From a virus, in IMG/VR virus record IMGVR_UViG_3300030060_008074, positions 1 through 64,000 of that record: a stretch of 64,000 nt of DNA; one strand, given 5' to 3'. Made by a program: the position numbers and the translations under genes. The notes beneath the pieces are model-generated. The model did no database searches, was not told where the DNA came from, and worked only from the letters and a program-made list of their open reading frames with translations. Position 1 is the stretch's first letter. Each line of letters starts with the position of its first letter. Shown here piece by piece: positions 1,071-19,918 of the stretch.

Positions 1071-1088
1071 AATCTTTATTTATAGTTA

Positions 1089-1144
1089 AATATAATAAAA
1101 ATATTTGACCCGGTAAAATCCTGGCCAAAAAGTTATTAACAATT
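1089..1144 (-). promoter_or_regulatory. Class A 31-bp phage promoter motif plus upstream TTGTTAATAACTTTT box
   Basis: Minus strand reads AATTGTTAATAACTTTTT...ATTTTACCGGGTCAAATATTTTTATTATATT; same motif at 9 intergenic sites. Confidence 0.65.
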
Positions 1145-5905: not shown

Positions 5906-6202
5906 TTAACTCACATCCATAAAATCGTGGTGACTTGCTTTCACACCCGATATTTTAAGTTCTCTTACTATTTTATCTAAAGTATTCCTACCTGAACCGT
6001 ATCTTCTAGGCACTTCCATGTCTATACCCATACTCTTGAGGTATTTATTAGTATCGTCTAATCCTAATTTAGCAGTTCTTTGTTTTTGAGATTTGTTTTT
6101 GTGTACGTCTGTACCGTAGAATAGACCGCCCTGTTCTGTATAAACAAACTCAACCTTTTGATAAGGGCTCTTAATCTCATATAGTAAACTTTTTAATTTC
6201 AT
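5906..6202 (-). CDS. Hypothetical protein with KLK-x-LL-x-E leader
   Basis: Begins MKLKSLLYE. Confidence 0.65.
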   Translation of the reverse strand: MKLKSLLYEIKSPYQKVEFVYTEQGGLFYGTDVHKNKSQKQRTAKLGLDDTNKYLKSMGIDMEVPRRYGSGRNTLDKIVRELKISGVKASHHDFMDVS

Positions 6203-6450
6203 TATTTTAGACCAAACATTTTACCCATTAGATCAGGGTAACCTTTAACAGTTCGTAGCGTCTGTATCATCTTACTTATAGTAGACTTGTCTGCACCTTT
6301 AGCCGTTTTAGCTTCATGTTCAAGGTGTCGAAGTAATATAGTACAATTCCTCTCGAATTCTTTTTTGAATTCTTTGTCCATTGGAGCCTCTGTTAATGTT
6401 CCAGCTGATAATTTTCTAAGCCATGCATGTTGATTAAATTTTTCTGCCAT
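6202..6450 (-). CDS. Hypothetical protein
   Basis: 82 aa; N-terminal segment ends LTE. Confidence 0.6.
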   Translation of the reverse strand: MAEKFNQHAWLRKLSAGTLTEAPMDKEFKKEFERNCTILLRHLEHEAKTAKGADKSTISKMIQTLRTVKGYPDLMGKMFGLK

Positions 6451-7550
6451 TAGTATTGCTCCATCTTATCTAATTTAGCCATAAGTTTTTTGAACTCAGA
6501 TTTTTTCTTTTTATATTCTTTTTCTTTCTTTTCAATATCTCTACCATATCTAGTAGCTTTAGGTCCACCTTCTGGCTCTGCCTCTTGTTCCATATCTTTA
6601 TGAAGTTGACTTAAATCTTTATTTATCATCTTCATATCCATTTCAAGGTCCATTATTTCATCTTGCAATTTCATTTTTGCATCAAAATGTTTCCAAAGAC
6701 TAGTGGCTTCATTTACTTTATCCACATCAATAGTTTCCTTTATTTCTTTAGCCATCATTACAGAAAGACCTAAAGCATCAATTAACTTTTTAGCAGTATT
6801 AAAGTATTTTTTATCTAACTTCAATGCTGTTAAAGTTGTAGATAATCTATTCATTGAATAACCCTTAATTTTAGCTTTATCTAATGCTTTTTGTAAGTCT
6901 GCAGGCTTGAAGTTTCCAGTAGTTTTGATACCAATCATACTTTCATTTAATTTGCCTTCAGTAACTCTTCCGTTCGATACAAAAAATGAATGTGGTTTTT
7001 GATTCCAAGTTTTAGGGTCTCCTTGAAAGTCCATATCTTCTTTCTTACCAGTTGATTTCATACCGCTTGACGTTACTACTGGCTCGTTTTCATAATAGAA
7101 CCATTTACCATTTTTTTCTTGAGCCACAGCAGTTGCCCAACGTGGAGGTGTTGCAGTAAATTTTGATTTGAAAGCTTTATATTTCGCTGAAGCTTCATTT
7201 AATTTATCATATCCTGATCCGTACGGCGCTGCCTTTCCATCGTGGTCTGGAGCAACTGACTCTTCTTTTTCATATCTATGAGATTGATCCGCGCATATGG
7301 CTTCTGATATAAATACCTTTTTTCCCTTTCTTTTCTCTGAGCTAGGTTTCAATCCAGATACCATTACCGGGTCAAAGCTTGTGGCTCCCGTACTCGGAAA
7401 CTTTACATAGGCAACATTACCCTTAACCTTATTAACTACTCCATACTCACCGAATGATTTATCGTGTATGAAGTCGCCTTTTTTAGGCTTTTGCTCTGTT
7501 AATAGGCTTAATTCTTCTTTTATGATATTTATGATTTCTGACTTTTTCAT
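6450..7550 (-). CDS. Multi-module putative virion internal protein
   Basis: MKKSEIINIIKEELSLLTE leader; modules separated by ISE/LNE/VTE/VNE motifs; C-terminal coiled coil. Confidence 0.55.
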   Translation of the reverse strand: MKKSEIINIIKEELSLLTEQKPKKGDFIHDKSFGEYGVVNKVKGNVAYVKFPSTGATSFDPVMVSGLKPSSEKRKGKKVFISEAICADQSHRYEKEESVAPDHDGKAAPYGSGYDKLNEASAKYKAFKSKFTATPPRWATAVAQEKNGKWFYYENEPVVTSSGMKSTGKKEDMDFQGDPKTWNQKPHSFFVSNGRVTEGKLNESMIGIKTTGNFKPADLQKALDKAKIKGYSMNRLSTTLTALKLDKKYFNTAKKLIDALGLSVMMAKEIKETIDVDKVNEATSLWKHFDAKMKLQDEIMDLEMDMKMINKDLSQLHKDMEQEAEPEGGPKATRYGRDIEKKEKEYKKKKSEFKKLMAKLDKMEQY

Positions 7551-7551
7551 G

Positions 7552-7917
7552 TTAAGATGGTATAGTAGCGCCTTTTCTATTAAGAGTATTTGTCAATTCA
7601 GCTACCCCTTTGTATGCTTTATTAAAAGCTCCCTTCAAGTGACTGTATCTAGAACTATCAGCTGCTTTCATTTGATTTTCCATTCTTTCAATTTGAGTTC
7701 TTAATTCTCTCATCTTTTCTACATAAGGGTCCTTTCTCATTTTTGGAGCCTCTTCTAATCCCATATCTTGAGGCGGTAAATCATCAGTACTACCTTTATG
7801 GTCTTGATCTGCTACATCCTCCTCTTCAGTTAATGGATTCCATTTCATTTTCATGAGCTTTGAAGAAGGAAGTTCTCCTAAATAAGCACTTTCTTGAATT
7901 ATCTTTTTAAGTTTCAT
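7552..7917 (-). CDS. Hypothetical protein with KLK-x-II-x-E leader
   Basis: Begins MKLKKIIQE; class B motif and AGGAG upstream. Confidence 0.65.
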   Translation of the reverse strand: MKLKKIIQESAYLGELPSSKLMKMKWNPLTEEEDVADQDHKGSTDDLPPQDMGLEEAPKMRKDPYVEKMRELRTQIERMENQMKAADSSRYSHLKGAFNKAYKGVAELTNTLNRKGATIPS

Positions 7918-7935
7918 TATTTCTCTCCTATATTA

Positions 7936-7945
7936 TATAAATATC
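7936..7945 (-). promoter_or_regulatory. Class B (late-like) promoter motif GATATTTATA
   Basis: Minus strand TTGATATTTATATAATATAGGAGAGAAATAATG; the same core precedes several other genes. Confidence 0.55.
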
Positions 7946-7954
7946 AAGGTATAC

Positions 7955-8311
7955 CTAAAAGGCATCCATTATTATCTCATCTATTTTACCCTGTACATCT
8001 TCAACAGTTGCTTCCATTGTCATCATAATATTTGCCTGAAACCTTGCAACTTCTTCTCCATCATTGTATATTACAATTGTTGGTACAACTACTATTTTAT
8101 ATTTAGCAGCAGCTTTTGTATCTTTTTGAATATCTATAAATTTTTTGCTACACTCTTTTAGTTCTCCTAACCATGGTACTTTATTAGCCTCATTAAACCC
8201 AGCATTAAATTGTACTACACATATTCCATCGCCTTTACATGGACTCTGAGCTTTTGTAGAAAAGCTACTAATAAAAAGTAATAATGCCAATATGTATCCC
8301 ATGTACTTCAT
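7955..8311 (-). CDS. Exported thioredoxin-fold protein lacking CxxC
   Basis: Signal peptide; VVQFNA-x-(W/F)N in place of WCxxC; KYKIVVVPTIVIYNDGEEV..RF cis-Pro segment. Confidence 0.7.
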   Translation of the reverse strand: MKYMGYILALLLFISSFSTKAQSPCKGDGICVVQFNAGFNEANKVPWLGELKECSKKFIDIQKDTKAAAKYKIVVVPTIVIYNDGEEVARFQANIMMTMEATVEDVQGKIDEIIMDAF

Positions 8312-8320
8312 AACTCTCTC

Positions 8321-8605
8321 CTATCTTAGTTTGTCTATCTTTTCCTCTAATCTTTTTATAGATTCTTTTAATTCTTTGACATCTTCTTGAGTTGTCATAA
8401 TTGTTTGACGTACTAATTGGTCTTTCATATCAAATTCCATACGCGTTATTTCTGCTGGAGGAGGTTCTGGCAATAATTTTGCCTCTTCAATATCAGCCTG
8501 TAGAGCAAACCACATACCAACTATAGTAAAAATTAGAACCGCAATACCTGCTAAAGTCTTTATACTTAACTTTAACGTTGTGTCTTCATTTAACTCTTTT
8601 GCCAT
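8321..8605 (-). CDS. Single-TM coiled-coil protein
   Basis: TM LAGIAVLIFTIVGMWFAL followed by a heptad-rich tail. Confidence 0.65.
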   Translation of the reverse strand: MAKELNEDTTLKLSIKTLAGIAVLIFTIVGMWFALQADIEEAKLLPEPPPAEITRMEFDMKDQLVRQTIMTTQEDVKELKESIKRLEEKIDKLR

Positions 8606-8616
8606 CTTTCTCTTCC

Positions 8617-9693
8617 TTAAAATACTCTATAGTTTATACCTGCACTAAATCCGTGCCAAGTTCTGTTCCAATATTTGTTGTAATTTCCTTCTACAAACAC
8701 TCCTAAATTTTTACTAAACCAGTGTCCTAATATTATACCACCAGAGTAGTCATTCCATTGGCCTTCATTAAAATTGTAATAACTAAATTCATTTTCATCA
8801 TCACTAAAATGTAATGGCATTAGGCTACCCCATGCATGTAACCAACTTGTTTTAGTGTATTTGTAATAATCAAATCCTACTACCCATGAGTGTGTCCATT
8901 GTACTGGTAGCTCGTTTCTCTTTTTCTCAGTGTAGTTCGCAAGTGCTTGTGGTATAACAACAGCTTCCCATACCTCTGTACTAGTTGCTACTGAATTTCC
9001 TGATGGATCAAAATATTCTGCTCCGCCTTGTCCATCAAATTCTACTGTATATCCTTCTTGTAGAGCTAATTGAGTATAATGTAAATTGCCATTTGATAGT
9101 AGCCACTCTTCTAGTGGATCAAATCCATAAGGCTCTGACATTCTCTGTGCTACACCAATATTAACAGATATACCCTTCCATTCCTTTCTGTACCTTAATG
9201 AAGATTCAAAGAATTTTACATCAGCAAAACCGTCACGTAAATATTCTGCTTTAACTAGCCAGTCGGTAGCTATATATCTGACCATATGATGATAGTCAAA
9301 ATATTCTTGGCCTTCTTGTCTTTTATATTCATGTTGAAATAAAAATTCTACTTGATTTGACCATCTACCTATTGTTGCTGCATCACTAAAACTATTTTCT
9401 GTTCCATTTTTGAATGCCTCTTTAGGTTCATATCCAAATCTCTTTATTTTTCTAGCGCCAAATAATACTGAATAATCATAAGGTGTTTTAATTGTTTGTG
9501 TCTCTAGTCCATTCGTAACACTATAAACATCTACGTCTGATACAGAAGTATTACCATTCACAGCTCCATAAACTGTTGAGTACTTAAAAAAGTCTTTAGT
9601 AAAAGTTTTAACATCTACTTGGCCACAGCATTTTTTAGGTGCTGCACAACCAGCTAAAACAACTAATAATATAATGAGTATCTTTTTCATCAT
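8617..9693 (-). CDS. Putative outer-membrane beta-barrel / lipoprotein
   Basis: LAGC lipobox-like signal; aromatic amphipathic strands; C-terminal FSAGINYRVF beta-signal. Confidence 0.6.
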   Translation of the reverse strand: MMKKILIILLVVLAGCAAPKKCCGQVDVKTFTKDFFKYSTVYGAVNGNTSVSDVDVYSVTNGLETQTIKTPYDYSVLFGARKIKRFGYEPKEAFKNGTENSFSDAATIGRWSNQVEFLFQHEYKRQEGQEYFDYHHMVRYIATDWLVKAEYLRDGFADVKFFESSLRYRKEWKGISVNIGVAQRMSEPYGFDPLEEWLLSNGNLHYTQLALQEGYTVEFDGQGGAEYFDPSGNSVATSTEVWEAVVIPQALANYTEKKRNELPVQWTHSWVVGFDYYKYTKTSWLHAWGSLMPLHFSDDENEFSYYNFNEGQWNDYSGGIILGHWFSKNLGVFVEGNYNKYWNRTWHGFSAGINYRVF

Positions 9694-9704
9694 CTTCTCC
9701 TAGT

Positions 9705-10130
9705 TTACATCGCCTTGTCTAGTATCTTAACGCGATTAAGTCCTTTTAAGAATTTTTTTGTTGGTACCAGTGCATTTCCTATGTCAGTACGCTTGGCGCT
9801 TGTCTTTCCTTGATAGTCATCATATTTTTCTATTGATACTTTAGTGACATCAACAGTGCTGTCGTTTAAGTAGTGTTGTGTTTGATATATAAAATAAACT
9901 TCAGGTGGATAGCCACTTCCTTGTACGACATGATATTGCATGTGCTTAAACATTTTACCACCTTCATATGTTTTAAGTCGTTTATTTGCAGCTGCAACGT
10001 CGCCTCTTCCAACTCCAAAGCCTAAGCCTTGTAATACGTCGATAACTTTGTTAGCATTTTTATCTTTCACATACTTCATTTCAAAATTATAGTCTGTGAA
10101 TTCTTTTAGTATTTTCTGTAGTTTTATCAT
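9705..10130 (-). CDS. Hypothetical protein with IKL-x-x-IL-x-E leader
   Basis: Begins MIKLQKILKE. Confidence 0.65.
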   Translation of the reverse strand: MIKLQKILKEFTDYNFEMKYVKDKNANKVIDVLQGLGFGVGRGDVAAANKRLKTYEGGKMFKHMQYHVVQGSGYPPEVYFIYQTQHYLNDSTVDVTKVSIEKYDDYQGKTSAKRTDIGNALVPTKKFLKGLNRVKILDKAM

Positions 10131-13100
10131 TGTTTTACCACTCTCGTATTAAATTTTCTATCATTATATATAAGTATCAAGTTGTACACCCCGTTTGGAT
10201 AGTCTGATAAATCAATTCTCTTAGAAGTTTCTCTCGTCATCAATTTACCCATAATATCGTATATCTCTACCTCAACTTCTAATCTTGTATCTATATTTAT
10301 CATATCTCCTGTAGGATTAGGATAAATCATTATTCCCATAGAGCTTATATCTTCTACTGATGTTGGCCAACCTAATTGACAGTAATCATACATTGATTGA
10401 CAACTAGCATCCCAATCGTCAGTACAGCAATATGAATCTACATCTATTACCCAAGCATAGCACCCATCGTTTAACCAATAAGGAACTCCTGGTCCTCCAT
10501 AACAACCTGCATCATATAAACAAGCTGAAGAATCTGAAACATTTGCTGCTGGATTGTAGTTATATGCACCTACATCTGTACATCCAAGAACTGCTGTTAT
10601 ACATGAACCGTCGTCATAACATGCGTTTGAATTATAGTTAACCGCTAATGGATCTGTACAACCTCCAATATAACAACAAGAATTATCTAGTGTATTAGCT
10701 AAAGGATCGAAGTTAAGTGCAGTATTATCTGTACAACCATAGATAAATGGTATACATGTTCCATTGTCCGTGTTGGCAGTTGGGTCATAATTGTACTGTG
10801 TAGAATCTGTACAACCATAGATAAATGGTATACAACTTCCGTTATCTGTGTTAGCTCCAGCATCATAATTAAACATTGTTGGGTCTGTACAACCATAGAT
10901 AAATGGTACACAGCTTCCGTCATCTGTATTTGCCGATGGATCGTAATTAAACTGGCTAGGATCAGTGCATCCATAAATATATGGTACGCAACTTCCGTCA
11001 TCTGTATTTGCTGTTGGCATATAATTGTAAGCACTTGAATCTGTACAACCATAAATATATGGTATACAGCTTCCGTCATCAGTGTTAGCAAGAGAATTGT
11101 AATTCAATGCTGTAGAGTCTGTACATCCTAATAACTCTGCTATACAAGTACCATCATCAGTATTTGCTAAAGCGTTGTAATTTATTGCTGTTGAATCTGT
11201 ACATCCGTAAAGATATGGTATACAGCTTCCATCATTTGTATTTGATAAAGCATCATAATTAAGAGCTGTTGAGTCTGTACAGCCATAAATGAATGGAATA
11301 CAAGAACCATTGTCTGTGTTAGCTGATGGGTCGTAGTTCCACATTGTCATATCCATACATCCATAGATAAACGGTATACATGAATAGTCTTCTGTATTTG
11401 CTAGTGGGTCATAATTAAATGCCGTTGGGTCTAGACAACCAAATACCTTTGCTATGCATGGGTCAGTTTGGTCTACTACCGAAGTCCATTGTACTGTAGC
11501 ATATTGGTCATAATTGTATTGAGTAGAATCCATACAGCCAAATATTGCATAATTAAGACAATAGCTTCCGTCATCGTAGTCTGCTACAAATCCTTGCGTA
11601 TGATATTCTAAATAGGCTGCATCTGTGCAACCAGGATTGTAATAACAAGAGTTATCTGTTGTATTTGCAAATTGATTATAGTTAACTGCTAAAGAATCTA
11701 TACATCCATATATTTTAGGAATACAGTTATTTCCACAAAATGCTAAATCATCATAAATCATTCCGTATTGATTATATGATAATAGTGGGTCAGTAAATGA
11801 ATTTGTACCTCCTTCAGAAATAACTAAACCAATTGGATTTGTTATCTGGAACATACATTGATTTGATGTTGGTACAGACTGTCCAAATGAGTAAAAATAA
11901 GTTTTTATTTCTTGTTGAGTATTAAGATATATTGCTGTATCTAATATTAGGTCGTTAGGTCCTAAAGTAAACGGACCCCAAAAATTATTTCCTTGAGTTA
12001 CAACTAAGAATGAGCCTGCCCAGCCATTATCAGCCCAGTCAGTTAATGTTAAAGTATTCATGCAACCAGGATTTTGTAATTGTGCTGTAGCATTAGGGTC
12101 ATAATTAAATGCGTTTGTATCAACACAGCCAAATACATTTAGTGTAGCACATGAACTATCATCTACAGTTGCCATTGGATTAAATTCTTGATATGCAGGG
12201 TCTGTGCAACCTAATATAGGTGTCTGTACACATTCATTGACGAATCCTACATCTGAATAAGTATTACCAAAATCTCCTATACCTTGAGATATAGTATCAC
12301 ATTCAGTATAAACTATCCATGTTCCATCAATACCACCAAATTGAGCACCACCTAAACCATCACCAAAATCGTCATCAATTGTAAATTGTATTTCTGTGCC
12401 ATAATCAATACAAAGATATTTTGTTACTATTGCTCCCATTGGCTGACCTGAATAAGAACCAATAGGCTGCTCGTGTATTAAAGTTCCACCTATTGTATAA
12501 ATATCCCATCCAATTTCTTCTGCATATTGGTCTAACATTATCTCTACTGTTACTAACTCTTTGCCAGGCGAACAAGATATAGGACCGCCTCCACCACAAC
12601 TATTATCGTCTAATGTTGCAGCTGGATTATAGTTTGCTGAAGTAGAATCCATACAACCAGGAATATTGATACATGAACCATCATCTACACCTGCTAAAGG
12701 ATTATAGTTTAGAGCGTTTGGTTGAGTACATCCATAAATGAATATACATGGATCAACCAACCAGTCTTCACCAACAACCGCATTTACGTTTAATCCTGGT
12801 ACAAAAGTTCCTGTATTTCCATCAGCTTGAGCTTCAGTTGGCACAACATAAATTAAAACTGCTGGCGCATTACAGTTTGTAGGAAAGTTAACCCCATCTA
12901 CGAACCACTGTTGACCTGATATGTAGATTCTAGTACCAGCCGACCATAGTGAAGGGTCATTCCAATAATCTACTGAATCTATTCCAAAATAGTTTTGATT
13001 CCATGAAGTTAAATTACAACTACCTCCTGGTACAATTACACCGTTTGGTAATTCACCTGCCGTAGAATCATAGTTTGTTGCATTAGGGTTCATACAGCCC

Positions 13101-13588
13101 TGTATATACTGACATGACCCATCGTCGTAAGAAGCCAATGAGTCATAGTTTATTGCAATAGGGTCCGTACATCCATATACTGGAGGAGCACAAGGCAAAA
13201 TATTAACTAGCGTATCTAGTGTTGAAAAGCCTATAAGTGCTGCTGAATCAAGATAAAATATCATACCTTGACAATCATTCTGCATCTTGAATTCAGAATA
13301 AGGTCCCATAAGTTGACCTGATTGATATGATGCCCACCCATCTCCATAAGAATCATTTAACGTTACTAAATAATCGCCTGAATTACAATTTATTACTGTG
13401 TCTAGATATTCCCATGGCTGTGTAGGCTCATGGAATAGTAAAGTATCTCCGTTTGAATTAGATACAAATGTAAAACCTGACTCTTGATTTGCCCAATAAT
13501 CATACTGAACTGCAAATCTAACCCAACTATCTGTTTGGGCAAATAGAAAAGTTGGTATTAACAGCAGTAAAAATAAAAATTTTTTCAT
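10127..13588 (-). CDS. Large secreted Cys-rich GCTD-repeat protein with T9SS type-A sorting domain
   Basis: Signal peptide MKKFLFLLLLIPTFLFA; about 21 GC(T/M)D...NY...A..DDGSC repeats; DSYGDGW-type Ca-binding motifs; C-terminal IYPNPT...IYDIMGK...IDLS.YPNGVY. Confidence 0.85.
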   Translation of the reverse strand: MKKFLFLLLLIPTFLFAQTDSWVRFAVQYDYWANQESGFTFVSNSNGDTLLFHEPTQPWEYLDTVINCNSGDYLVTLNDSYGDGWASYQSGQLMGPYSEFKMQNDCQGMIFYLDSAALIGFSTLDTLVNILPCAPPVYGCTDPIAINYDSLASYDDGSCQYIQGCMNPNATNYDSTAGELPNGVIVPGGSCNLTSWNQNYFGIDSVDYWNDPSLWSAGTRIYISGQQWFVDGVNFPTNCNAPAVLIYVVPTEAQADGNTGTFVPGLNVNAVVGEDWLVDPCIFIYGCTQPNALNYNPLAGVDDGSCINIPGCMDSTSANYNPAATLDDNSCGGGGPISCSPGKELVTVEIMLDQYAEEIGWDIYTIGGTLIHEQPIGSYSGQPMGAIVTKYLCIDYGTEIQFTIDDDFGDGLGGAQFGGIDGTWIVYTECDTISQGIGDFGNTYSDVGFVNECVQTPILGCTDPAYQEFNPMATVDDSSCATLNVFGCVDTNAFNYDPNATAQLQNPGCMNTLTLTDWADNGWAGSFLVVTQGNNFWGPFTLGPNDLILDTAIYLNTQQEIKTYFYSFGQSVPTSNQCMFQITNPIGLVISEGGTNSFTDPLLSYNQYGMIYDDLAFCGNNCIPKIYGCIDSLAVNYNQFANTTDNSCYYNPGCTDAAYLEYHTQGFVADYDDGSYCLNYAIFGCMDSTQYNYDQYATVQWTSVVDQTDPCIAKVFGCLDPTAFNYDPLANTEDYSCIPFIYGCMDMTMWNYDPSANTDNGSCIPFIYGCTDSTALNYDALSNTNDGSCIPYLYGCTDSTAINYNALANTDDGTCIAELLGCTDSTALNYNSLANTDDGSCIPYIYGCTDSSAYNYMPTANTDDGSCVPYIYGCTDPSQFNYDPSANTDDGSCVPFIYGCTDPTMFNYDAGANTDNGSCIPFIYGCTDSTQYNYDPTANTDNGTCIPFIYGCTDNTALNFDPLANTLDNSCCYIGGCTDPLAVNYNSNACYDDGSCITAVLGCTDVGAYNYNPAANVSDSSACLYDAGCYGGPGVPYWLNDGCYAWVIDVDSYCCTDDWDASCQSMYDYCQLGWPTSVEDISSMGIMIYPNPTGDMINIDTRLEVEVEIYDIMGKLMTRETSKRIDLSDYPNGVYNLILIYNDRKFNTRVVKQ
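10520..11440 (-). repeat. Coding tandem repeat, about 12 copies of a 78-bp (26-aa) unit GCTDxxAxNYDPxANTDDGSCIPFIY
   Basis: tgtacaacc recurs at 78-bp spacing (10730, 10808, 10886); the protein shows a 26-aa period. Confidence 0.9.
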
Positions 13589-13731
13589 AGTTCAAATCCC
13601 AAATTACATATCATAAATCGAAACTTACCTTTTTCGACCTTTATTTCCAATACTGTAAAAGTACCTAGTCGACATGTTAGACTGTACTTTTCTTTTTTAT
13701 TTCCTGCGTCAAATCCGTTTATCCAATTCAT
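13585..13731 (-). CDS. Small protein not in the ORF track (48 aa)
   Basis: Manual translation MNWINGFDAGNKKEKYSLTCRLGTFTVLEIKVEKGKFRFMICNLGFEL*; AAGGAG SD; ATGA overlap with the next gene. Confidence 0.65.
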   Translation of the reverse strand: MNWINGFDAGNKKEKYSLTCRLGTFTVLEIKVEKGKFRFMICNLGFEL

Positions 13732-13747
13732 AACAATTTCTCCTTTA

Positions 13748-14323
13748 TTACTTTTTAATAATATCTGTCAATTTACTAGATACTGACTCTTTCATACTCT
13801 TATATATAGCCTTAAATTCTTTTTTAGTTTTACCATCTAAATACCTATCCAAACCAAATGCATTTGCCGGCCTAATTAGAGATGCTATTTTGCCCTTATT
13901 TATGAATTTACCATATTTTTTACCGTATGGAGACATTCTAATCCAAGTCTGTATACCATCTGCTAGGTCTTTAGACATCTTAATACCTTCTATTGAAGAA
14001 GTTTTTCCTTTTACTATGTCTTCTAAGCCTTGCTTTGCAGTTAGTCCTCTTCCTCCTGATGAACCTTTATCTGCCTTTCTCTGGAAAAAAGATGCATCTC
14101 GCTTTTGTGGCTTTTCTTTTTTACCTTTATCCTTTAAAAATTTATCAGATACTTTCTTTTCTTTATTGTATGCTATCTTAGCTGGATGGTCGTCTGGTAA
14201 TTTTTTAGCAGATCCTGCAGGCATTAAATCATTTTCTCCAGTTTTAGGGTCTTTATATCTTATCATGGTTTTATCTTTCAAACCAGTATATTCAAATTCA
14301 TTTAGCATGCTTTTTAGTTTCAT
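13748..14323 (-). CDS. Basic hypothetical protein with KLK-x-ML-x-E leader (start revised)
   Basis: ATG at 14323 gives MKLKSMLNE and removes the overlap with the nuclease gene. Confidence 0.65.
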   Translation of the reverse strand: MKLKSMLNEFEYTGLKDKTMIRYKDPKTGENDLMPAGSAKKLPDDHPAKIAYNKEKKVSDKFLKDKGKKEKPQKRDASFFQRKADKGSSGGRGLTAKQGLEDIVKGKTSSIEGIKMSKDLADGIQTWIRMSPYGKKYGKFINKGKIASLIRPANAFGLDRYLDGKTKKEFKAIYKSMKESVSSKLTDIIKK

Positions 14324-14327
14324 ATTA

Positions 14328-14717
14328 CTATCCCTTAAATACTTTCTTTTTACCTCCATCATAAACATATGCATGACCTTCAGTAATCAATTGGTTATTT
14401 ACACAAATGGTATTTTCATTTTCGTCTTGTATAAAAATTTCACCAAGAACTCTACCGTACTTACCAACTCCATACGATTTAAGTCTAAAATATCCTGGTT
14501 TAGAACTAACCTCCTCTAAAAGCTTTTTATTTCTTTCTTTGGCTGCTAATCCTTTTTTCTTTTCATCAAGGTCTCTTGTCCTGCTTTCCCAGCAGTCTAT
14601 ACCTTTGTATCTAATTCTTTTTTTAACCCAAATGTCAAATCCTACATCGATAAGAGCATCGATAGTGTCTCCATCAACTACTCTTTCTAACTTACCTCGA
14701 TATATGTACTTTTCCAT
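14328..14717 (-). CDS. Thermonuclease (SNase-like) family protein
   Basis: RVVDGDTID...RIRYKGIDCWE...GKYGRVLG...VN.QLI.EGHA. Confidence 0.85.
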   Translation of the reverse strand: MEKYIYRGKLERVVDGDTIDALIDVGFDIWVKKRIRYKGIDCWESRTRDLDEKKKGLAAKERNKKLLEEVSSKPGYFRLKSYGVGKYGRVLGEIFIQDENENTICVNNQLITEGHAYVYDGGKKKVFKG

Positions 14718-15038
14718 CTAGCAACTTTCTTTACAGCAAGTTTTACTATTAACTTTACAAGCTTTACATTTACATACTTGCCAGTATGCCCATCCACCTG
14801 CTGCTAATAAAAGCACTGTACCAAATAATAGGTTAGCGCCAAATGTACATCCAGCTCCAACTGCAAGGAGATAACCTCCGTAACATTTAGTATAGCATAC
14901 GATTTTATCGTAAACTGACTGATTTTCTTTATATTCAGCTACTAGCTTTTCATCTATAGTAGTTGAGTCTAATACTTTTTTTACAACCTTCTTGGCTGTT
15001 TTTTTAACTGCTTTTTTAGCTGTTGTTTTCTTTGCCAT
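14718..15038 (-). CDS. Membrane protein with histone-like KKTAKKAVKK N-terminus and Cys-rich tail
   Basis: Sequence composition; AGGAG SD and class B motif upstream. Confidence 0.6.
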   Translation of the reverse strand: MAKKTTAKKAVKKTAKKVVKKVLDSTTIDEKLVAEYKENQSVYDKIVCYTKCYGGYLLAVGAGCTFGANLLFGTVLLLAAGGWAYWQVCKCKACKVNSKTCCKESC

Positions 15039-15068
15039 GTTTTATTCTCCTTTGTTAATTCTTCTAAG

Positions 15069-15078
15069 TATAAATATC
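15069..15078 (-). promoter_or_regulatory. Class B promoter motif
   Basis: Minus strand TTGATATTTATACTTAG, about 30 nt before the ATG at 15038. Confidence 0.55.
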
Positions 15079-15101
15079 AAAATTTCTGGTTTAATACATC
15101 T

Positions 15102-15626
15102 CTACTTAACCAATTTTGTGATTATAGTGGTATCAGGATACTTTTTCCTAAGTTTATTTACTGCCTTTATATTTTTAGGGCTGTCATCCATAAAGTATAT
15201 CGGATCGTAACCTTTTAGTATTTCTGTCTCTATGTATTCTGCCTTTTTCTGTGGATTTGCATCACCTAAAGGTACTACGTATGGCTGTATACCTATGGTT
15301 TTGAAGAAATGATTTATTGGTGCACCAAGTCTTCTGGCAGTTAATATCGTCACTTTTCTGCCACCCTTCTTTAATTGCTTGCGTAACAAATCAACATTCT
15401 TTTTGATAATTTTTGGATTTCTTAACTTTTTATCAAAATCTCTAAAATCATATTCTTGTCCTTTTTCTAGTCTGTGTACTGCAAATTCAGCAGGGTCAAG
15501 CTTTTCTACCTCTACTCCATTAGCAGTTACGTACACCCATGAATCTGACTTAGCTAGGGTATCATCAAAGTCAAATATACTTAAAAGCTTCTTCTCTAGT
15601 AGTATGTCTTTTAATTTTATCGCCAT
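15102..15626 (-). CDS. HAD-superfamily phosphatase with IKLKDIL-x-E leader
   Basis: FDFDDTL (motif I), ILTAR (II), K, FMDDS (IV); starts MAIKLKDILLE. Confidence 0.8.
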   Translation of the reverse strand: MAIKLKDILLEKKLLSIFDFDDTLAKSDSWVYVTANGVEVEKLDPAEFAVHRLEKGQEYDFRDFDKKLRNPKIIKKNVDLLRKQLKKGGRKVTILTARRLGAPINHFFKTIGIQPYVVPLGDANPQKKAEYIETEILKGYDPIYFMDDSPKNIKAVNKLRKKYPDTTIITKLVK

Positions 15627-15853
15627 GGTAGCATTGTCATTCCTATTAAATTAAGTAAAACTTCTATTATGATAACTGCTATCAAACCTGGACCTAATTG
15701 CCAAGCCCACCATTTCCATCCTTCTAATCCTAACGCCCATTCACGTATTGAAGACTTTCTTGCCTTATCATATAAACCAGACCTTTCACCAATCTTACTA
15801 GACCAATAATTTGGGTCTATTATATCTTTTAATTTTTTTAATAATTTAAGCAT
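15617..15853 (-). CDS. Small Trp-rich membrane protein
   Basis: WKWWAWQL followed by a TM helix. Confidence 0.55.
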   Translation of the reverse strand: MLKLLKKLKDIIDPNYWSSKIGERSGLYDKARKSSIREWALGLEGWKWWAWQLGPGLIAVIIIEVLLNLIGMTMLPWR

Positions 15854-16193
15854 CCTTAGTTTTCTTCTTTAATTTTTCTAAGTGTGCAGACCAAATTTTG
15901 TATGCGGCGTTTAGATTTTTCTTTTTTTCTGGGTCTTTAGTTCTTTCTTTTGCAACCTTTGCTCTTTGTTTCATAACCAATGTAGCTTGTACTTTATGAG
16001 CGTGTTTACGACTAGCTTTATTTATTATTCCTACACCCTTTCTGGCGGTTGCAGCATCTTTGAATCCTAGTCCATGTATTGTTCCTTTTGGGTCTTCATC
16101 AGTATATAGGTCTGAATGTTTTGAAGAACCTTTTTTCTGTCCCTTTTTTCTAGCAGTTCTTGAAGCCTCGTATATGTCTTTTAACTTTATCAT
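15846..16193 (-). CDS. Basic hypothetical protein with IKLKDI-x-E leader
   Basis: MIKLKDIYE...SDLYTDEDPKGTIHGLGFKD. Confidence 0.65.
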   Translation of the reverse strand: MIKLKDIYEASRTARKKGQKKGSSKHSDLYTDEDPKGTIHGLGFKDAATARKGVGIINKASRKHAHKVQATLVMKQRAKVAKERTKDPEKKKNLNAAYKIWSAHLEKLKKKTKDA

Positions 16194-16594
16194 ACGTATT
16201 TTTTCCAGTTTTTCTCTGCTCTCCTAGCTTCCTTTTCTGTAGGATTATTTTTGTATCCTTTTTCTCTTCCTGACTTTATCTTTTTTGGGTCTTGTTTTGC
16301 ATGAGTGTATTCATGTAATATAGACCTAATAACGTCCTCTTCTGAATTTAATGCTGAACTATAAAGGTATATCGTATTATCTTCATGTACAAATTCAGCC
16401 TTTTCTCTTTCTCCTCCTGGGTGATCCTCGATTCCACTATATCTTGCATAGATATTACTGCCAATTTTAATTTTTGGTATACCCTTTCTAGCCTTTCCAA
16501 GGTCCTTTACTATTTTAGGATATACTCTAGATACAATTTTGTTTATATCATTTTTAGACATTCCTTCTGAGAGTATGTCTTTTAATCGTATCAC
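16190..16594 (-). CDS. Zincin-like metallopeptidase (HExxH) with IRLKDIL-x-E leader
   Basis: SILHEYTH plus downstream NPTEKEA; starts MIRLKDILSE. Confidence 0.7.
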   Translation of the reverse strand: MIRLKDILSEGMSKNDINKIVSRVYPKIVKDLGKARKGIPKIKIGSNIYARYSGIEDHPGGEREKAEFVHEDNTIYLYSSALNSEEDVIRSILHEYTHAKQDPKKIKSGREKGYKNNPTEKEARRAEKNWKKYV

Positions 16595-17241
16595 TTTTTC
16601 TTCTTTTTAGCTTTTCTTGCTTTTGCCGCTAAATCTTTATCTGCTCCACCCCAAGTTCCCTTTCCTTTTGTTGCAAAGCTATTTACTCTAGCATGGGCCC
16701 ATTGTTGTTGTCCTGCACCAGGACGATGTCCAGTTTTCCAAGCAGCCATTCCTCTATCATATACTTTCTTAAGTATTCCCTTTGGTATACCTGTTTTTTT
16801 AGCTTTTTTTGCTAAAGACTTATCTGCTGGAGATTCCTTTAGGGTTTTTGATTCCTTCCAAACCTCTCTTAGTGCTTTCCAACCGTTTTCCCCAAACATC
16901 TGCTTGAATTTTTTTGTGTGTTTTGATGGTTTTGTTTTTTCACCCTTGTCTGTATCAAAATCTTTATACGCATCTGGGTCGTCGTCATCCATCTTACTTC
17001 TTCTAGCTATAACCCTTTCCCTCTCTTTTTTCTCTTCTGGAGATAATCCTTTGAAATAAGCAGGATTACTTTTAGCTGTCGCTGAAGCCTCATCTAAACC
17101 GAATCTCATGGCTCTAAGCTGGAACTCAATAATTCCTTCACCTCTTCTTCTGTTTTGATTTCCAATGAGCTTCGCGAATACAAGCTTATCAAATATTACC
17201 TTTGCTGCCTTTTTAGGGCTAAGTCCTTCATTTAGTTTCAT
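16591..17241 (-). CDS. Basic viral protein, C-terminal DUF5824-like module
   Basis: GIPKGILKKVYDRGMAAWKTGHRPGA..QQWAHARVNSF..GTW..ADKDL; starts MKLNE. Confidence 0.6.
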   Translation of the reverse strand: MKLNEGLSPKKAAKVIFDKLVFAKLIGNQNRRRGEGIIEFQLRAMRFGLDEASATAKSNPAYFKGLSPEEKKERERVIARRSKMDDDDPDAYKDFDTDKGEKTKPSKHTKKFKQMFGENGWKALREVWKESKTLKESPADKSLAKKAKKTGIPKGILKKVYDRGMAAWKTGHRPGAGQQQWAHARVNSFATKGKGTWGGADKDLAAKARKAKKKKK

Positions 17242-17251
17242 AATATATCTC

Positions 17252-17719
17252 CTATCTTGGCGGTGCCTCTATAGCTGCTATTTGTCCTTTTGCTCTTTTC
17301 TTTGAAGTATGACAGGCACTTCTCTTTTTACCTTTTTTATCTGTATAATATAGTACAGTATTTCCTCTATCTCCATCAGATTGTTTACAGCTCTGACTTC
17401 TTATATTATATTTTTCTTCTAATTCTTCATCATCTGGGTTTAGAAGATAATCTCTACACTTATTTAGAGAGTTAGATGCAATTGCAATTTTACTCATCCA
17501 CCAACTAGGTAAATCTCCTTCTGAGTCCATCGTTTCTAATTTTTCTAGCATTTGCCTTGCATCTTCTATTGCAAGCTTCATTTTTCTCTTTGCAGAAGCC
17601 ACGTCAGTATGTCCATCTTCGTTTAACTCATCATCCTTTTTAGGCGCGCCCTTTATTGTTCCATCAGGTTCGACTAGAGCTGGGTTTTGCTCACTTAATA
17701 TATTTTTTAATTTAATCAT
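17252..17719 (-). CDS. Multi-module hypothetical protein with IKLKNIL-x-E leader
   Basis: MIKLKNILSE; internal LNE and LEE; LPSWWMSKI helical module. Confidence 0.65.
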   Translation of the reverse strand: MIKLKNILSEQNPALVEPDGTIKGAPKKDDELNEDGHTDVASAKRKMKLAIEDARQMLEKLETMDSEGDLPSWWMSKIAIASNSLNKCRDYLLNPDDEELEEKYNIRSQSCKQSDGDRGNTVLYYTDKKGKKRSACHTSKKRAKGQIAAIEAPPR

Positions 17720-18552
17720 CTTATTCTCCTATTAAAAAAGTCAAACAATGCATCACCAACCTCTAATCCAAATATAGAGTCTGATGGATAATGCACCTTT
17801 GCGACAAGTCTTGCGTTAGATATTTCATCAGCCAATTTCATTATTTCGTTAGAATGCTCAGGATATTTTGTTGCTAAAAATTTTCCAATCAATCTTCCTT
17901 GGCTCGAGTGGCCACTAGGATACGAAGGAGTTTTTGCAGTATCTAGAGGCTCTTGATGGAATTCTAATCCCATAGCTGAAGCCAGTTGGGCTGGTCTTGG
18001 CCTATTGTAGTGATATTTTAGTTTATATAATATACCCTTTGTATCTTTTATCAGTGTTTCTACCTCCTCCTTTGGATAATCTAATCCAGCACTCTTGAAA
18101 TATTCTTCAAAATATTTTGTAATATCATCTGCCTTTTTTACATCAATAGTGCTTACTATAGTCTCTAGCTCTCTCATTTCAGCTAAAGTTTTTTGGCTAC
18201 TGTTAGAAAAGGGTGGATTTGACATGAATGGAGATATATCAAAGTCTTGAAATATACTATCATTTCTGTCCATATGTTTTTGATGAGATTTTTTAACTGT
18301 GTCTCCATATTTTAGAGAATCTACATCTGATACAATTTCTTTTAACTTAATAGATTCTTTTTTGGGCATAAGTTTTTTTATTCTAAAAGACAGCATCTTT
18401 TTACCATTTATAGTTGGTTGTCCATGCTCATCTGTTCCAAACTCTTTTACAACAACAGGCTTGTTCTTAAATTTTCCACGTAAAATAGTATCACCTACTT
18501 CTAGGTCAATTTCAAACTTTTCAGATAATATGTCTTTTAACTTTATTCCCAT
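17716..18552 (-). CDS. PAP2/vanadium-haloperoxidase-family phosphatase with IKLKDIL-x-E leader
   Basis: K-x6-RP (KYHYNRPRP), PSYPSGH, ARLVAKVHYPSD; starts MGIKLKDILSE. Confidence 0.85.
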   Translation of the reverse strand: MGIKLKDILSEKFEIDLEVGDTILRGKFKNKPVVVKEFGTDEHGQPTINGKKMLSFRIKKLMPKKESIKLKEIVSDVDSLKYGDTVKKSHQKHMDRNDSIFQDFDISPFMSNPPFSNSSQKTLAEMRELETIVSTIDVKKADDITKYFEEYFKSAGLDYPKEEVETLIKDTKGILYKLKYHYNRPRPAQLASAMGLEFHQEPLDTAKTPSYPSGHSSQGRLIGKFLATKYPEHSNEIMKLADEISNARLVAKVHYPSDSIFGLEVGDALFDFFNRRIR

Positions 18553-18731
18553 TTTCTTTGATATTTTTCTCTTTGGTCTATGAGTACGTACTCTACAGCA
18601 TCATATTCACCACAATGTGGACATCTAAGTTTTTCTAAATTACTTGCTTCATTTATTTTCCATTCACCACCACATTTCTTATTACTACATTTGTAAATAT
18701 ACGTATGTCTAATGAATACCTTGTGTCCCAC
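18543..18731 (-). CDS. Zinc-ribbon protein
   Basis: YKCSNKKC...W...CPHCG. Confidence 0.6.
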   Translation of the reverse strand: MGHKVFIRHTYIYKCSNKKCGGEWKINEASNLEKLRCPHCGEYDAVEYVLIDQREKYQRKWE

Positions 18732-18743
18732 TAAAATTCTCCG

Positions 18744-19226
18744 CTACCAGTTTTTACAGCTCCAGTATCTTGCTTTATGTCTTGGACCAGGACTATCGCA
18801 ATTATGTCTTGCTCTAAAACTTGCTCTTGCTCCTGGATCAGATCTTTTAATTCTATTCTTTTTACCTTTGGCTCCAAAGTTTACTTTAACAACATTCCCC
18901 TTTGGATTCTTAACATAAACCTTAAACTTACCAGTATCACCTCTTGTAGGCTTTCCAAGTTTTACCTTTCTTCCTTGATACTCTGCTTCAGTTATATTCT
19001 GCATTTGGTTTGTTAAGTATTCCATAAAACAATCATAGTCTTCTGTTTTAACTTCATATTCAGGAATTACTGATTCTGAGGCAGATCTGAAATTTTTATC
19101 AGATGGTGCCCCTTTTTCTCCCTTCTTTCTCATCCTTTTTCCAGATTTTCTTCTCTTATGTATATTGGCCCATAATCCAGGACCCTTTTCATTTAGATTT
19201 TCTAAAATTTTTCTTAGATTTATCAT
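18744..19226 (-). CDS. Basic multi-module viral protein with INLRKILE leader
   Basis: MINLRKILENLNE; GLWANIH module; EAEYQGRKVKL...VNFG...FRARHNC...ARYWSC module. Confidence 0.65.
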   Translation of the reverse strand: MINLRKILENLNEKGPGLWANIHKRRKSGKRMRKKGEKGAPSDKNFRSASESVIPEYEVKTEDYDCFMEYLTNQMQNITEAEYQGRKVKLGKPTRGDTGKFKVYVKNPKGNVVKVNFGAKGKKNRIKRSDPGARASFRARHNCDSPGPRHKARYWSCKNW

Positions 19227-19227
19227 G

Positions 19228-19845
19228 TTATCCCTCTAAATCTTCTGATTCTAATAATGTATATGAAAATGAATTACCATGAATTTCTCTAGCTGCTTGA
19301 CAAATATCTAAAAATTCATGCCAATCATCGTTATCTGCAATTACTTGGCAACCTGCTGACCATTTATCTACTCTTGTAGATTTTCCTCCTGACCTACCAG
19401 TAGCTCTATGGATGTTGATTCCTATAAGCTCTTCTCTTACTGACTCTTCTATTAAATCATATTTGCCGTCTAGGTTTGCATCTCTGTATATTTTCATAGG
19501 CTTCTTTTGGCCTAAAGCTAAATATTTTCCTTGATGAAGTCTTAATTTATGAGAGCCTCTGTACTGACCAGGTTTTAATATTGCAACACCTCTATCATTC
19601 AGTATATTTTCAACCCAGTGAGTTCCTGGATCGGTTGTACATGCATATTCATGATACATCCAATTGCCATCTTCATTTTTATATGAGATAGTTATTAGAT
19701 CGTCAAATGCATTTGTAACCCTGCCCTTTGTTTTTGAATTTCTAATTCCTATGATATTTACATCATAAGATTTATTGCTGTTGTCGTGAAAGTATTTGTA
19801 ACCTTTTTCTTCGACAGTTGATTGAATCTGTTCTCTTGTGTACAT
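19228..19845 (-). CDS. Putative peptidoglycan-active enzyme (L,D-transpeptidase/YkuD-like catalytic motif), lysin candidate
   Basis: GINIH-x16-SAGCQV resembles the H-x14-17-S-x-GC motif; TTDPG, PGQY. Confidence 0.55.
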   Translation of the reverse strand: MYTREQIQSTVEEKGYKYFHDNSNKSYDVNIIGIRNSKTKGRVTNAFDDLITISYKNEDGNWMYHEYACTTDPGTHWVENILNDRGVAILKPGQYRGSHKLRLHQGKYLALGQKKPMKIYRDANLDGKYDLIEESVREELIGINIHRATGRSGGKSTRVDKWSAGCQVIADNDDWHEFLDICQAAREIHGNSFSYTLLESEDLEG

Positions 19846-19886: not shown

Positions 19887-19895
19887 TATAAATAT
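19887..19895 (-). promoter_or_regulatory. Class B promoter motif
   Basis: Minus strand TTTATATTTATATAAG upstream of GGGAGAG SD and ATG 19845. Confidence 0.5.
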
Positions 19896-19918
19896 AAAGT
19901 TTGAACTATAAAATATCA

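What the first reader, a model, noticed from the sequence alone, without database searches (positions are those of the whole stretch)
5906..19226. About a dozen unrelated proteins share an N-terminal M-(I)-K-L-K-x-I-L-x-E leader: a putative capsid-targeting, protease-cleaved cargo system
Seen in sequence: MKLKSLLYE (6202), MKLKKIIQE (7917), MIKLQKILKE (10130), MKLKSMLNE (14323), MAIKLKDILLE (15626), MIKLKDIYE (16193), MIRLKDILSE (16594), MKLNE (17241), MIKLKNILSE (17719), MGIKLKDILSE (18552), MINLRKILE (19226), plus the variant MKKSEIINIIKEE (7550). The bodies are unrelated: a HAD phosphatase, a PAP2 phosphatase, an HExxH peptidase and basic DNA-binding-like modules. None of the glycan or replication genes has this leader. 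Established: T4 internal proteins carry a ~10-aa N-terminal capsid-targeting sequence ending in Glu that is removed by the gp21 prohead protease (L/I-x-E). Inference: this is a portable packaging tag that loads a varied enzyme cargo into the head for ejection at infection. It might be usable as an engineering tag.
Basis: partly seen in the sequence, partly recalled or inferred. Interest (0 to 1): 0.85.

Follow-up and report, generated by a model that had tools for sequence, protein, structure and literature searches.

The report
T4-style capsid-cargo leader peptides
About a dozen unrelated, mostly basic proteins of an uncultured marine T4-like phage begin with the same ten-residue peptide, which matches the tag phage T4 uses to load proteins into its head and then cut off. 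They are probably head-packaged cargo, including enzymes, but neither packaging nor cutting has been measured.

Summary
Ten genes on the minus strand at 5906-19226 start with M(x)(I)KLKxILxE, against 0.02 expected by chance. There are no such hits elsewhere in the 78-kb contig. Three looser variants lie in the same stretch. Conservation is in the peptide, not the DNA: synonymous codons are randomised and the upstream DNA is unrelated.

The bodies are unrelated and basic (median pI 9.6 against 6.1). They include a PAP2 phosphatase, a HAD-like phosphatase, an HExxH protein and a DUF5824 protein.

The contig is a fragment with no head genes. Collinear relatives (G001, G015, G017) are true T4-like phages with gp23, gp20 and a gp21-type S77 protease. 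In them the same leaders sit on proteins encoded right beside the protease. The predicted cut sites of capsid, scaffold and protease read (L/I)(I/L)xE, like the end of the leader. Modules shuffled between relatives always begin just after such a site. A late-type promoter motif precedes the cluster.

The conserved leader positions (4, 7, 8, 10) are those shown in T4 to direct targeting and processing.

Best reading: a T4-type capsid-targeting, protease-removed leader (about 0.7). This is a new member of a known kind. The scan found the same leader before on other DNA.

The parts
18744..19226 (-). Leader gene, 160 aa, MINLRKILE(NLNE)|KGPGLWANIHK...; basic (pI 10.2).
   Evidence: The same body module follows MKLQDILTE| in G017 and an internal FEGKLNE| in G015.
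17716..18552 (-). Leader gene, 278 aa, MGIKLKDILSE|. It is built as a small SH3-like module, then a second internal leader-like stretch (SIKLKEIVSD, residue 67 onward), then a PAP2 phosphatase with intact KxxxxxxRP / PSGH / R-x5-H-x3-D motifs.
   Evidence: Pfam PAP2 E 7e-12. Close orthologues keep the leader, and shorter homologues start at the internal leader.
17252..17719 (-). Leader gene, 155 aa, MIKLKNILSE|; no known family.
16591..17241 (-). Short-leader gene, 216 aa, MKLNE|; DUF5824 domain at residues 62-203; pI 10.2.
   Evidence: Pfam DUF5824 E 3.6e-23. KLNE is also the internal junction motif of the polyprotein-like relatives.
16190..16594 (-). Leader gene, 134 aa, (GTG start) MIRLKDILSE|; has an HExxH (HEYTH) motif.
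   Evidence: DUF3920 and M78 hits fall below cut-off.
15846..16193 (-). Leader gene, 115 aa, MIKLKDIYE|; very basic (pI 10.4, 28% K+R).
   Evidence: The G015 orthologue begins MIKLKHLLEE.
15617..15853 (-).
   Evidence: Conserved in relatives L158, L165 and L168.
15102..15626 (-). Leader gene, 174 aa, MAIKLKDILLE|; HAD-like phosphatase (FDFDDT).
   Evidence: In 12 orthologues L4 and E10 are invariant. In the model the leader lies outside the fold, and the best PDB matches are HAD phosphatases.
13748..14323 (-). Leader gene, 191 aa, MKLKSMLNE|; pI 9.9.
   Evidence: Its body module follows MKLKNIINE| in G017 and an internal AMNE| in G015.
9705..10130 (-). Leader gene, 141 aa, MIKLQKILKE|FTDYNF.
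   Evidence: The G015 and G017 orthologues have a different N-terminal extension ending QLKE|FT.
7552..7917 (-). Leader gene, 121 aa, MKLKKIIQE|.
   Evidence: The G015 orthologue begins MKLKKIIKE.
6450..7550 (-). Second-type leader (MKKSEIINIIKEE) on a 366-aa polyprotein-like gene. It has internal DKLNE (residue 116) and EGKLNE (residue 198) junctions and a coiled-coil tail.
   Evidence: The same leader type sits on head-module proteins beside the protease in G001 and G015.
5906..6202 (-). Leader gene, 98 aa, MKLKSLLYE|.
19887..19896 (-). Late-type promoter-like motif TATATTTATA, 51 nt before the 205-aa gene that heads the cluster.
   Evidence: The same motif precedes tail sheath, tube, baseplate and portal-side genes in G001, G015 and G017.
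15069..15078 (-). Late-type promoter-like motif GATATTTATA inside the cluster.
7936..7945 (-). Late-type promoter-like motif GATATTTATA, 28 nt before leader gene 7917.

Best explanation
The M(I)KLKxILxE peptide is this phage lineage's version of the T4 capsid targeting sequence (CTS).

Proposed mechanism (inferred):
1. The genes are transcribed late.
2. The N-terminal amphipathic peptide, with hydrophobic residues at P7, P4 and P3 and Glu at P1, docks the protein onto the scaffolding core while the prohead assembles.
3. The gp21-type (S77) prohead protease then cuts after the Glu. It also cuts at internal (L/I/M)-x-E joints such as EGKLNE.
4. This releases basic mature proteins and enzymes that stay in the head with the DNA and enter the host with it.

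Shown here: the motif itself, its peptide-level conservation, its portability across at least 23 body families, its presence on head-module proteins beside the protease in relatives, and its match to the predicted maturation sites.

Inferred only: packaging, cleavage, ejection, and what the cargo does.
For: (1) There are ten strict leaders against 0.02 expected, all at start codons and all in one 13-kb stretch.

(2) Selection acts on the peptide. Positions with the same amino acid use the same codon 56% of the time, against 51% expected from codon usage. The 40 nt upstream are 33% identical.

(3) Anchored on the Glu, the conserved positions are L4, I7, L8 and E10 of MIKLKDILSE. In T4's MKTYQEFIAE, residues 4 and 7 govern targeting and residues 8 and 10 govern processing (PMC9026906; T4 sequences read).

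(4) The window is collinear with G001 over about 70 kb. G001, G015 and G017 have Gp23, the gp20 portal and Peptidase_S77. The G001 protease is 34% identical to T4 gp21, including the GELxHP and SSRGLGS blocks.

(5) In those relatives, the genes right after the protease start MKLRNLLKE (G015), MKLKKLYE (G017), MKKTELIQLIKTTIAE|A (G001) and MNSKMIRKIIKEEL (G015).

(6) The predicted maturation sites resemble the leader end: capsid QLISE|S, QLITE|A and QLIDE|N; scaffold DLLKE|A; and the protease's own N-terminal site, which is [LIVM]xE in 62 of 67 homologues.

(7) Module boundaries coincide with the site. The same body follows an N-terminal leader in one phage and an internal ...KLNE| or ...LKE| joint in another.

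(8) 47 leader proteins fall into 23 body families. None of the window's leader proteins has a homologue in collinear G001, so this is a hypervariable set between conserved flanks, like the T-even IP loci.

(9) The mature proteins are basic: median pI 9.6 against 6.1, p = 1.5e-4.

(10) The strand-specific motif GATATTTATA precedes structural genes in three relatives and precedes the cluster here.

(11) There is a precedent in a cultured marine T4-like phage. The S-CREM2 cytidylyltransferase gp154 was found in virions by mass spectrometry (PMC10665884), and it begins MKNFSSFLTE|A.
Against: - The window's own contig has no protease, capsid or scaffold gene. CheckV rates it about 19% complete, so the link to a gp21-type protease rests on relatives whose polymerase is 56% identical or less.
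- No proteomic or N-terminal data exist for this lineage.
- (L/I)-x-E is a loose motif that occurs often by chance. The capsid cut site in the relatives is predicted, not aligned to T4's (one search does not cover that stretch).
- The late character of the promoter motif is inferred from gene context only, and the motif also precedes GroES and RNR genes.
- The T4 late promoter TATAAATA is not enriched.
- Leader length from Met to Glu varies between 9 and 11, and the residue after the cut (P1') is variable.
Confidence: 0.7

Rival explanations
1. The leader marks prohead-core or scaffold-type assembly proteins only. They are targeted to the core and cleaved, but then degraded or expelled like T4 gp22, gp67 and gp68. 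On this reading they are not a delivered enzyme cargo.
For: The same leaders sit on proteins encoded between the protease and the scaffold in G001, G015 and G017. The 366-aa protein has a coiled-coil tail and many internal L-x-E sites.
Against: Several bodies are enzymes with intact catalytic motifs (PAP2, HAD), which would be pointless in a degraded scaffold. The set is hypervariable between collinear relatives, unlike essential core proteins. The proteins are basic like T4 IPs, whereas the scaffolds are acidic.
Confidence: 0.12
2. The peptide is some other protein-level tag unrelated to the capsid. It could be a degron, a docking helix for the phage GroEL/ES or another partner, or a localisation helix.
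For: It is a short amphipathic helix in the model. The phage encodes GroEL and GroES. No direct packaging data exist.
Against: This does not explain the invariant terminal Glu with hydrophobic P3 and P4, nor the identity of that end with the predicted capsid, scaffold and protease sites. It also does not explain the internal KLNE joints at module boundaries or the head-module location in relatives.
Confidence: 0.1
3. The similarity is at nucleic-acid level. It would be a repeated gene-start cassette spread by recombination (like the T4-type promoter/stem-loop cassettes), or a translation-initiation optimum of AT-rich codons.
For: The leader codons are A/T-rich. Mobile regulatory cassettes that shuffle genes are known in T4-type genomes (PMC2839356, listed).
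Against: Synonymous codons are as variable as codon usage predicts (56% against 51%). The upstream 40 nt are unrelated (33% identity). Most leader genes overlap or abut the preceding gene, leaving no room for a cassette. The motif is also conserved when it lies internally in fused proteins.
Confidence: 0.03
4. Chance or compositional bias of N-termini in an AT-rich genome.
For: Many proteins in this genome start with MK.
Against: Expected 0.02 against 10 observed. The largest N-terminal cluster has 13 members against a null maximum of 4.
Confidence: 0.01

Closest known systems
Phage T4 internal proteins IPI, IPII and IPIII, with the capsid targeting sequence (CTS), processed by the gp21 prohead protease
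   Same: A ~10-residue N-terminal propeptide with hydrophobic residues at positions 4, 7 and 8 and Glu at 10. The bodies are unrelated, small and basic. The loci are hypervariable between relatives. A gp21-type S77 protease is present in the lineage. The scaffold N-terminus resembles the tag: T4 MLKEQLIAE|A, here MSKDLLKE|A (PMC3012670, PMC9026906).
   Different: The consensus differs (MIKLKDILSE against MKTYQEFIAE). There are about 13 tagged genes in one stretch instead of three. Several are enzymes or multi-module fusions with internal KLNE-type joints. The host is probably Bacteroidota. Nothing has been measured.
T4 Alt (ADP-ribosyltransferase), a head-packaged enzyme trimmed by gp21
   Same: An enzyme delivered with the DNA whose propeptides are removed after Glu (PMC9026906).
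   Different: The enzyme classes differ here (PAP2 and HAD phosphatases, an HExxH protein).
Inner-body and ejection proteins of giant phages phiKZ, 201phi2-1 and SPN3US, cut by gp175/gp245 (distant gp21 relatives)
   Same: Many head proteins, including large multi-domain ones, are cut after Glu at short motifs with redundant sites. The cargo is ejected into the host (PMC9026906, PMC5694885, PMC10052503).
   Different: Those phages are not T4-like in head gene order. No uniform 10-residue N-terminal tag has been described for them.
Virion-associated enzymes of the T4-like cyanophage S-CREM2 (cytidylyltransferase gp154 and neighbours)
   Same: A marine T4-like phage with an enzyme detected in virions by mass spectrometry. 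That enzyme starts with a T4-like leader, MKNFSSFLTE|A. It is homologous to HTVC008M gp130, whose C-terminal DUF5824 part matches window gene 17241.
   Different: The link to the window is indirect: different domains of a shared multi-domain protein. The paper did not discuss a targeting leader in the passages I read.

Membership tests
T4-type capsid targeting sequence / internal-protein system | An N-terminal propeptide of about 10 residues. Residues 4 and 7 (hydrophobic) direct targeting; residues 8 and 10 (Glu) direct processing. | tested here: met
   MIKLKDILSE has L4, I7, L8 and E10 conserved across ten genes. L4 and E10 are invariant in 12 HAD orthologues. The T4 rule is from PMC9026906.
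T4-type capsid targeting sequence / internal-protein system | The phage encodes a gp21-type (Peptidase_S77) prohead protease. | tested here: inconclusive
   No match in the window's own 78-kb contig, which has no head genes at all. It is present in the collinear relative G001 and in G015 and G017.
T4-type capsid targeting sequence / internal-protein system | The same (L/I)-x-E cut motif is used in the major capsid protein, the scaffold and the core proteins. | tested here: met
   Tested in relatives only, and the sites are predicted. Capsid QLI(S/T/D)E, scaffold DLLKE|A, core TTIAE|A, and the protease N-terminal [LIVM]xE in 62 of 67 homologues.
T4-type capsid targeting sequence / internal-protein system | One tag on unrelated, mostly small basic proteins that vary between related phages. 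| tested here: met
   23 body families among 47 tagged proteins. No homologues of the window's set in collinear G001. Median pI 9.6 against 6.1.
T4-type capsid targeting sequence / internal-protein system | Late expression together with head genes. | tested here: inconclusive
   The strand-specific motif GATATTTATA precedes structural genes in three relatives and precedes the cluster here. No expression data exist. T4's own TATAAATA is not enriched.
T4-type capsid targeting sequence / internal-protein system | The proteins are physically inside the head, lack the propeptide, and are ejected at infection. | not testable with these tools
   This needs virion proteomics or N-terminomics, or reporter fusions.
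PAP2 phosphatase (gene 17716-18552) | Pfam PAP2 domain above gathering score, with the three signature motifs. | tested here: met
   E 7e-12, 45.7 bits against a cut-off of 27.2. KxxxxxxRP, PSGH and R-x5-H-x3-D were read in the sequence.
HAD phosphatase (gene 15102-15626) | DxDxT motif I and the Rossmann-like HAD fold. | tested here: met
   FDFDDT is invariant. HMM hits fall below cut-offs. The model has pLDDT 80.6, and its top PDB matches are all HAD phosphatases, though only at E about 1e-3.

The most novel reading that the evidence does not exclude
The tag plus the KLNE-type joints form a lineage-wide plug-in system. Any module placed behind a leader or a joint is carried into the head, cut free and injected. 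On this reading, this abundant uncultured marine phage group (probably infecting Bacteroidota) delivers a swappable kit of pre-made enzymes that act on the host before any phage gene is expressed. The kit would include PAP2 and HAD phosphatases, a zeta-like kinase and a zincin-like protein. This would be a phage counterpart of secretion-system effector repertoires.
Probability: 0.45. Interest if true: 0.7.

Novelty: new member of a known kind. Interest (0 to 1): 0.5.

Why it matters
If the reading is right, a simple sequence rule would pick out the injected proteins of a large, uncultured group of ocean phages directly from metagenomes. Those proteins are the phage's first-minute weapons against host defences, and they include enzymes whose targets are unknown. 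The rule also marks module boundaries, which helps annotate otherwise opaque polyprotein-like genes. The principle itself (CTS plus gp21) has been known from T4 since the 1990s and is already used for engineering. The gain is therefore in scope and cargo diversity, not a new mechanism.

Tried and rejected
- Complex prediction gave no verdict. I tested the G015 protease alignment against the G015 HAD leader-protein alignment. The score was 0.00 and the controls were not run.
- The T4 late promoter TATAAATA is not enriched (23 hits against 17 expected).
- The sigma-70 and terminator scan was uninformative.
- Peptidase_S77 was not found in the window's own contig.
- tblastn of the PAP2 protein and of a common PAP2 homologue against cultured phages found no relatives with the leader.
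- megablast of the region found only a 168-bp match to two Pelagibacter phages.
- The 205-aa gene at 19228-19845 proved a poor anchor for the lineage. It is spread over many phage types with and without S77, so I dropped the co-occurrence test that was built on it.
- The G001 759-aa cytidylyltransferase-like leader protein has no BLAST link to cyanophage virion proteins. The link to S-CREM2 runs only through HTVC008M gp130.
- PDB sequence searches for the HAD and HExxH proteins found nothing.
- A DNA-level repeat or cassette was tested and rejected.
- A Sec or T9SS signal was rejected. The leader is charged and has no hydrophobic core, whereas neighbouring exported proteins carry ordinary signal peptides.

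Full report
WHAT IS THERE

The window is the first 64 kb of a 78,204-bp linear viral contig. CheckV rates it about 19% complete. Nearly all genes lie on the minus strand.

A strict pattern, M-x(0-2)-[KRN]-L-[KRQN]-x-[ILMV]-[ILYQ]-x(0-1)-E, matches ten times in all six-frame ORFs of the contig. Each match is at a predicted start codon and each lies in 5906-19226. Random N-termini built from the same residue pool give 0.022 matches on average.

A motif-free clustering of all N-termini by BLOSUM score recovers the ten leaders as the largest component: 13 members against a null maximum of 4. Two listed members are variants. MKLNE (17241) has only the tail of the motif. MKKSEIINIIKEE (7550) is a second leader type.

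PEPTIDE, NOT DNA

Where two leaders share a residue, they share the codon 56% of the time, against 51% expected from the genome's codon usage. The 40 nt upstream are 33% identical. Most of these genes abut or overlap the preceding gene. This excludes a repeated DNA cassette or a simple translation-initiation optimum.

THE BODIES

- 17716-18552 is a PAP2 phosphatase (Pfam E 7e-12) with all three signature motifs.
- 15102-15626 is HAD-like. It has an invariant FDFDDT, weak HMM hits, and a model with pLDDT 80.6 whose best PDB matches are all HAD phosphatases, including the T4 PNKP phosphatase domain. In the model the leader is a low-confidence N-terminal extension outside the fold.
- 16190-16594 has HEYTH but only sub-threshold family hits.
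- 16591-17241 has DUF5824 (E 3.6e-23).
- The rest have no family.

After removal of the leader the proteins are strongly basic: median pI 9.6 against 6.1 for the other 96 proteins, p = 1.5e-4.

WHAT KIND OF PHAGE

The contig carries a family B polymerase, UvsX-like and gp32-like proteins, a DnaB-like helicase, RNR and GroEL/ES, but no head or tail gene. Its polymerase is only about 27% identical to those of cultured T4-like cyanophages.

IMG/VR holds many relatives. The 147-kb record G001 has a polymerase 56% identical and is collinear with the window from 8.3 kb to the contig end. In G001 the next genes along are baseplate, tail and head genes. G001 has Gp23 (E 2e-76), the gp20 portal (E 5e-73) and Peptidase_S77 (E 5e-31), in T4 gene order. 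Its protease is 34% identical to T4 gp21, including the GELxHP and SSRGLGS blocks. G015 (134 kb) and G017 (171 kb) have the same head module and share several of the window's leader proteins at 40-77% identity. The window's phage therefore very probably has such a module just beyond the end of the contig. This is an inference.

LINK BETWEEN LEADER AND HEAD MATURATION

(a) In T4, truncation and suppressor experiments showed that the first ten residues of IPIII suffice for packaging. Residues 4 and 7 matter for targeting and residues 8 and 10 for processing. Asp at position 10 blocks processing but not targeting (PMC9026906). I read T4's own sequences: IPII and IPIII MKTYQEFIAE|A, gp22 MLKEQLIAE|A, gp23 ...FLTE|A. 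In MIKLKDILSE the conserved positions are L4, I7, L8 and E10.

(b) In the relatives, the genes directly after the protease carry the same leaders: G015 MKLRNLLKE and MNSKMIRKIIKEEL, G017 MKLKKLYE, G001 MKKTELIQLIKTTIAE|A.

(c) The predicted maturation sites read like the leader's end. Capsid: QLISE|S, QLITE|A, QLIDE|N, which is the only L/I-x-E between the conserved LLENQ and the start of the Gp23 domain. Scaffold: MSKDLLKE|A. The protease itself has a conserved N-terminal [LIVM]-x-E site in 62 of 67 homologues, most often followed by Ser or Ala.

(d) Module boundaries coincide with the site.
- The KG.GLWANIHK module follows MINLRKILENLNE| in the window, MKLQDILTE| in G017, and an internal FEGKLNE| in a 367-aa G015 protein.
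- The SMIGIKT module follows an internal EGKLNE| in window gene 7550 and in G017.
- The DUF5824 module follows MKISKIIENILSE| in G015 and TLKE| inside window gene 17241.
- A zeta-like kinase begins GxYDPGIFKA right after MIKMIDLLNE| (G001), MIKLKDILNE| (two IMG/VR relatives) and MIPFILKE| (Pelagibacter phage HTVC008M).
- The window's PAP2 protein has an internal SIKLKEIVSD exactly where shorter homologues start with MIKLKD....

PORTABILITY AND TURNOVER

Across the window, G001 and 80 related loci, 47 strict-leader proteins fall into 23 body families. None of the window's leader proteins has a BLAST homologue in collinear G001, although the flanking genes are conserved. Close relatives carry different sets. 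T-even internal-protein loci behave the same way (PMC3012670, PMC9026906).

TIMING

The strand-specific motif [GT]ATATTTATA occurs 11:0 (coding against non-coding strand) in this contig, 29:1 in G001, 26:4 in G015 and 28:3 in G017. It lies 11-70 nt before starts. In the relatives its GATATTTATA form precedes tail sheath, tail tube, baseplate, terminase and portal-side genes. In the window it precedes the cluster at 19896, 15078 and 7945, and also precedes GroES. A second class, with an upstream TTTCCGG-type element, precedes small early-looking genes and replication genes. The late assignment is an inference from context.

PRECEDENT IN CULTURE

In the T4-like cyanophage S-CREM2, a cytidylyltransferase (gp154) was detected in purified virions by mass spectrometry (PMC10665884). 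Its N-terminus is MKNFSSFLTE|A. It is homologous to HTVC008M gp130 (E 7e-28), whose C-terminal DUF5824 part matches window gene 17241. The link is indirect, but it shows that enzyme cargo with such a leader does reach virions in marine T4-like phages.

VERDICT

What is missing is any measurement of packaging or cleavage, and the phage's own protease gene.

The main rival accepts targeting and cleavage but doubts delivery (assembly-only core proteins, 0.12). Other protein-level tags (0.1), a DNA-level cassette (0.03) and chance (0.01) are poorly supported or were rejected.

The mechanism is a known one, and the engineering use of a CTS is long established in T4. So this is a new member of a known kind. 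It is notable for the size of the array, the enzyme and multi-module cargo, and a probable Bacteroidota host: a T9SS sorting domain sits on the neighbouring 1153-aa protein.

The scan has met the same leader on other DNA before (e1-3862018, e1-5726076, e1-5800037). I did not use those notes as evidence.

Noticed in passing
window 10127-13588 (-): A 1153-aa repeat protein with a signal peptide and a T9SS type A sorting domain (TIGR04183, E 2.8e-10, above cut-off). It sits inside the leader cluster next to a lipoprotein-like 358-aa protein and an exported thioredoxin-like protein. It points to a Bacteroidota host.
   Followed up: partly
window 14328-14717 (-): A staphylococcal-nuclease homologue (Pfam SNase, E 7e-8) lies within the cluster but has no leader.
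   Followed up: no
window 19228-19845 (-): The 205-aa protein heading the cluster has no Pfam or NCBIfam family, yet has at least 596 relatives in IMG/VR across different phage types. It carries an SAGCQ motif that may resemble a cell-wall enzyme (from memory). It occupies the place that endolysin e holds beside ipIII and ipII in T4.
   Followed up: partly
window 1077-1100, 2000-2018, ~28760, ~45349, ~62990; contig ~65740, ~75340, ~77650: A second, bipartite promoter-like class (TTT(A/C)CCGG...N...TTTATTATATT) precedes replication, glycan and small early-looking genes. It is distinct from the late-type GATATTTATA class.
   Followed up: partly
window 56951-57241 and 55323-56945 (-): Phage-encoded GroES and GroEL. 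GroES is preceded by the late-type motif here and in G015 and G017. That would fit a role in capsid protein folding, as T4 gp31 has.
   Followed up: no
protein hits (e.g. P0125, P0128-P0133): Many S77 prohead protease homologues are about 570 aa long and match in two stretches separated by about 370 residues. This suggests an insertion (intein-like or endonuclease-like) inside the protease gene.
   Followed up: no
window 17716-18552 (-), residues 9-60: The small SH3-like module in front of the PAP2 domain occurs as a stand-alone 52-aa ORF in locus L098 (18020-18178). It also matches a 642-kb uncultured huge phage (LR756502.1).
   Followed up: partly
contig 66185-66195 and 69374-69384 (outside the window): Two runs of N lie in the contig beside the 864-aa and 445-aa ORFs. 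These are masked or gap positions.
   Followed up: no
window 47416-47907 (-): A 163-aa protein in the glycan island begins MGKLNE. Its G015 counterpart begins MAKLNE and lies next to a 1154-aa protein. The KLNE N-terminus may mean it is also processed.
   Followed up: no
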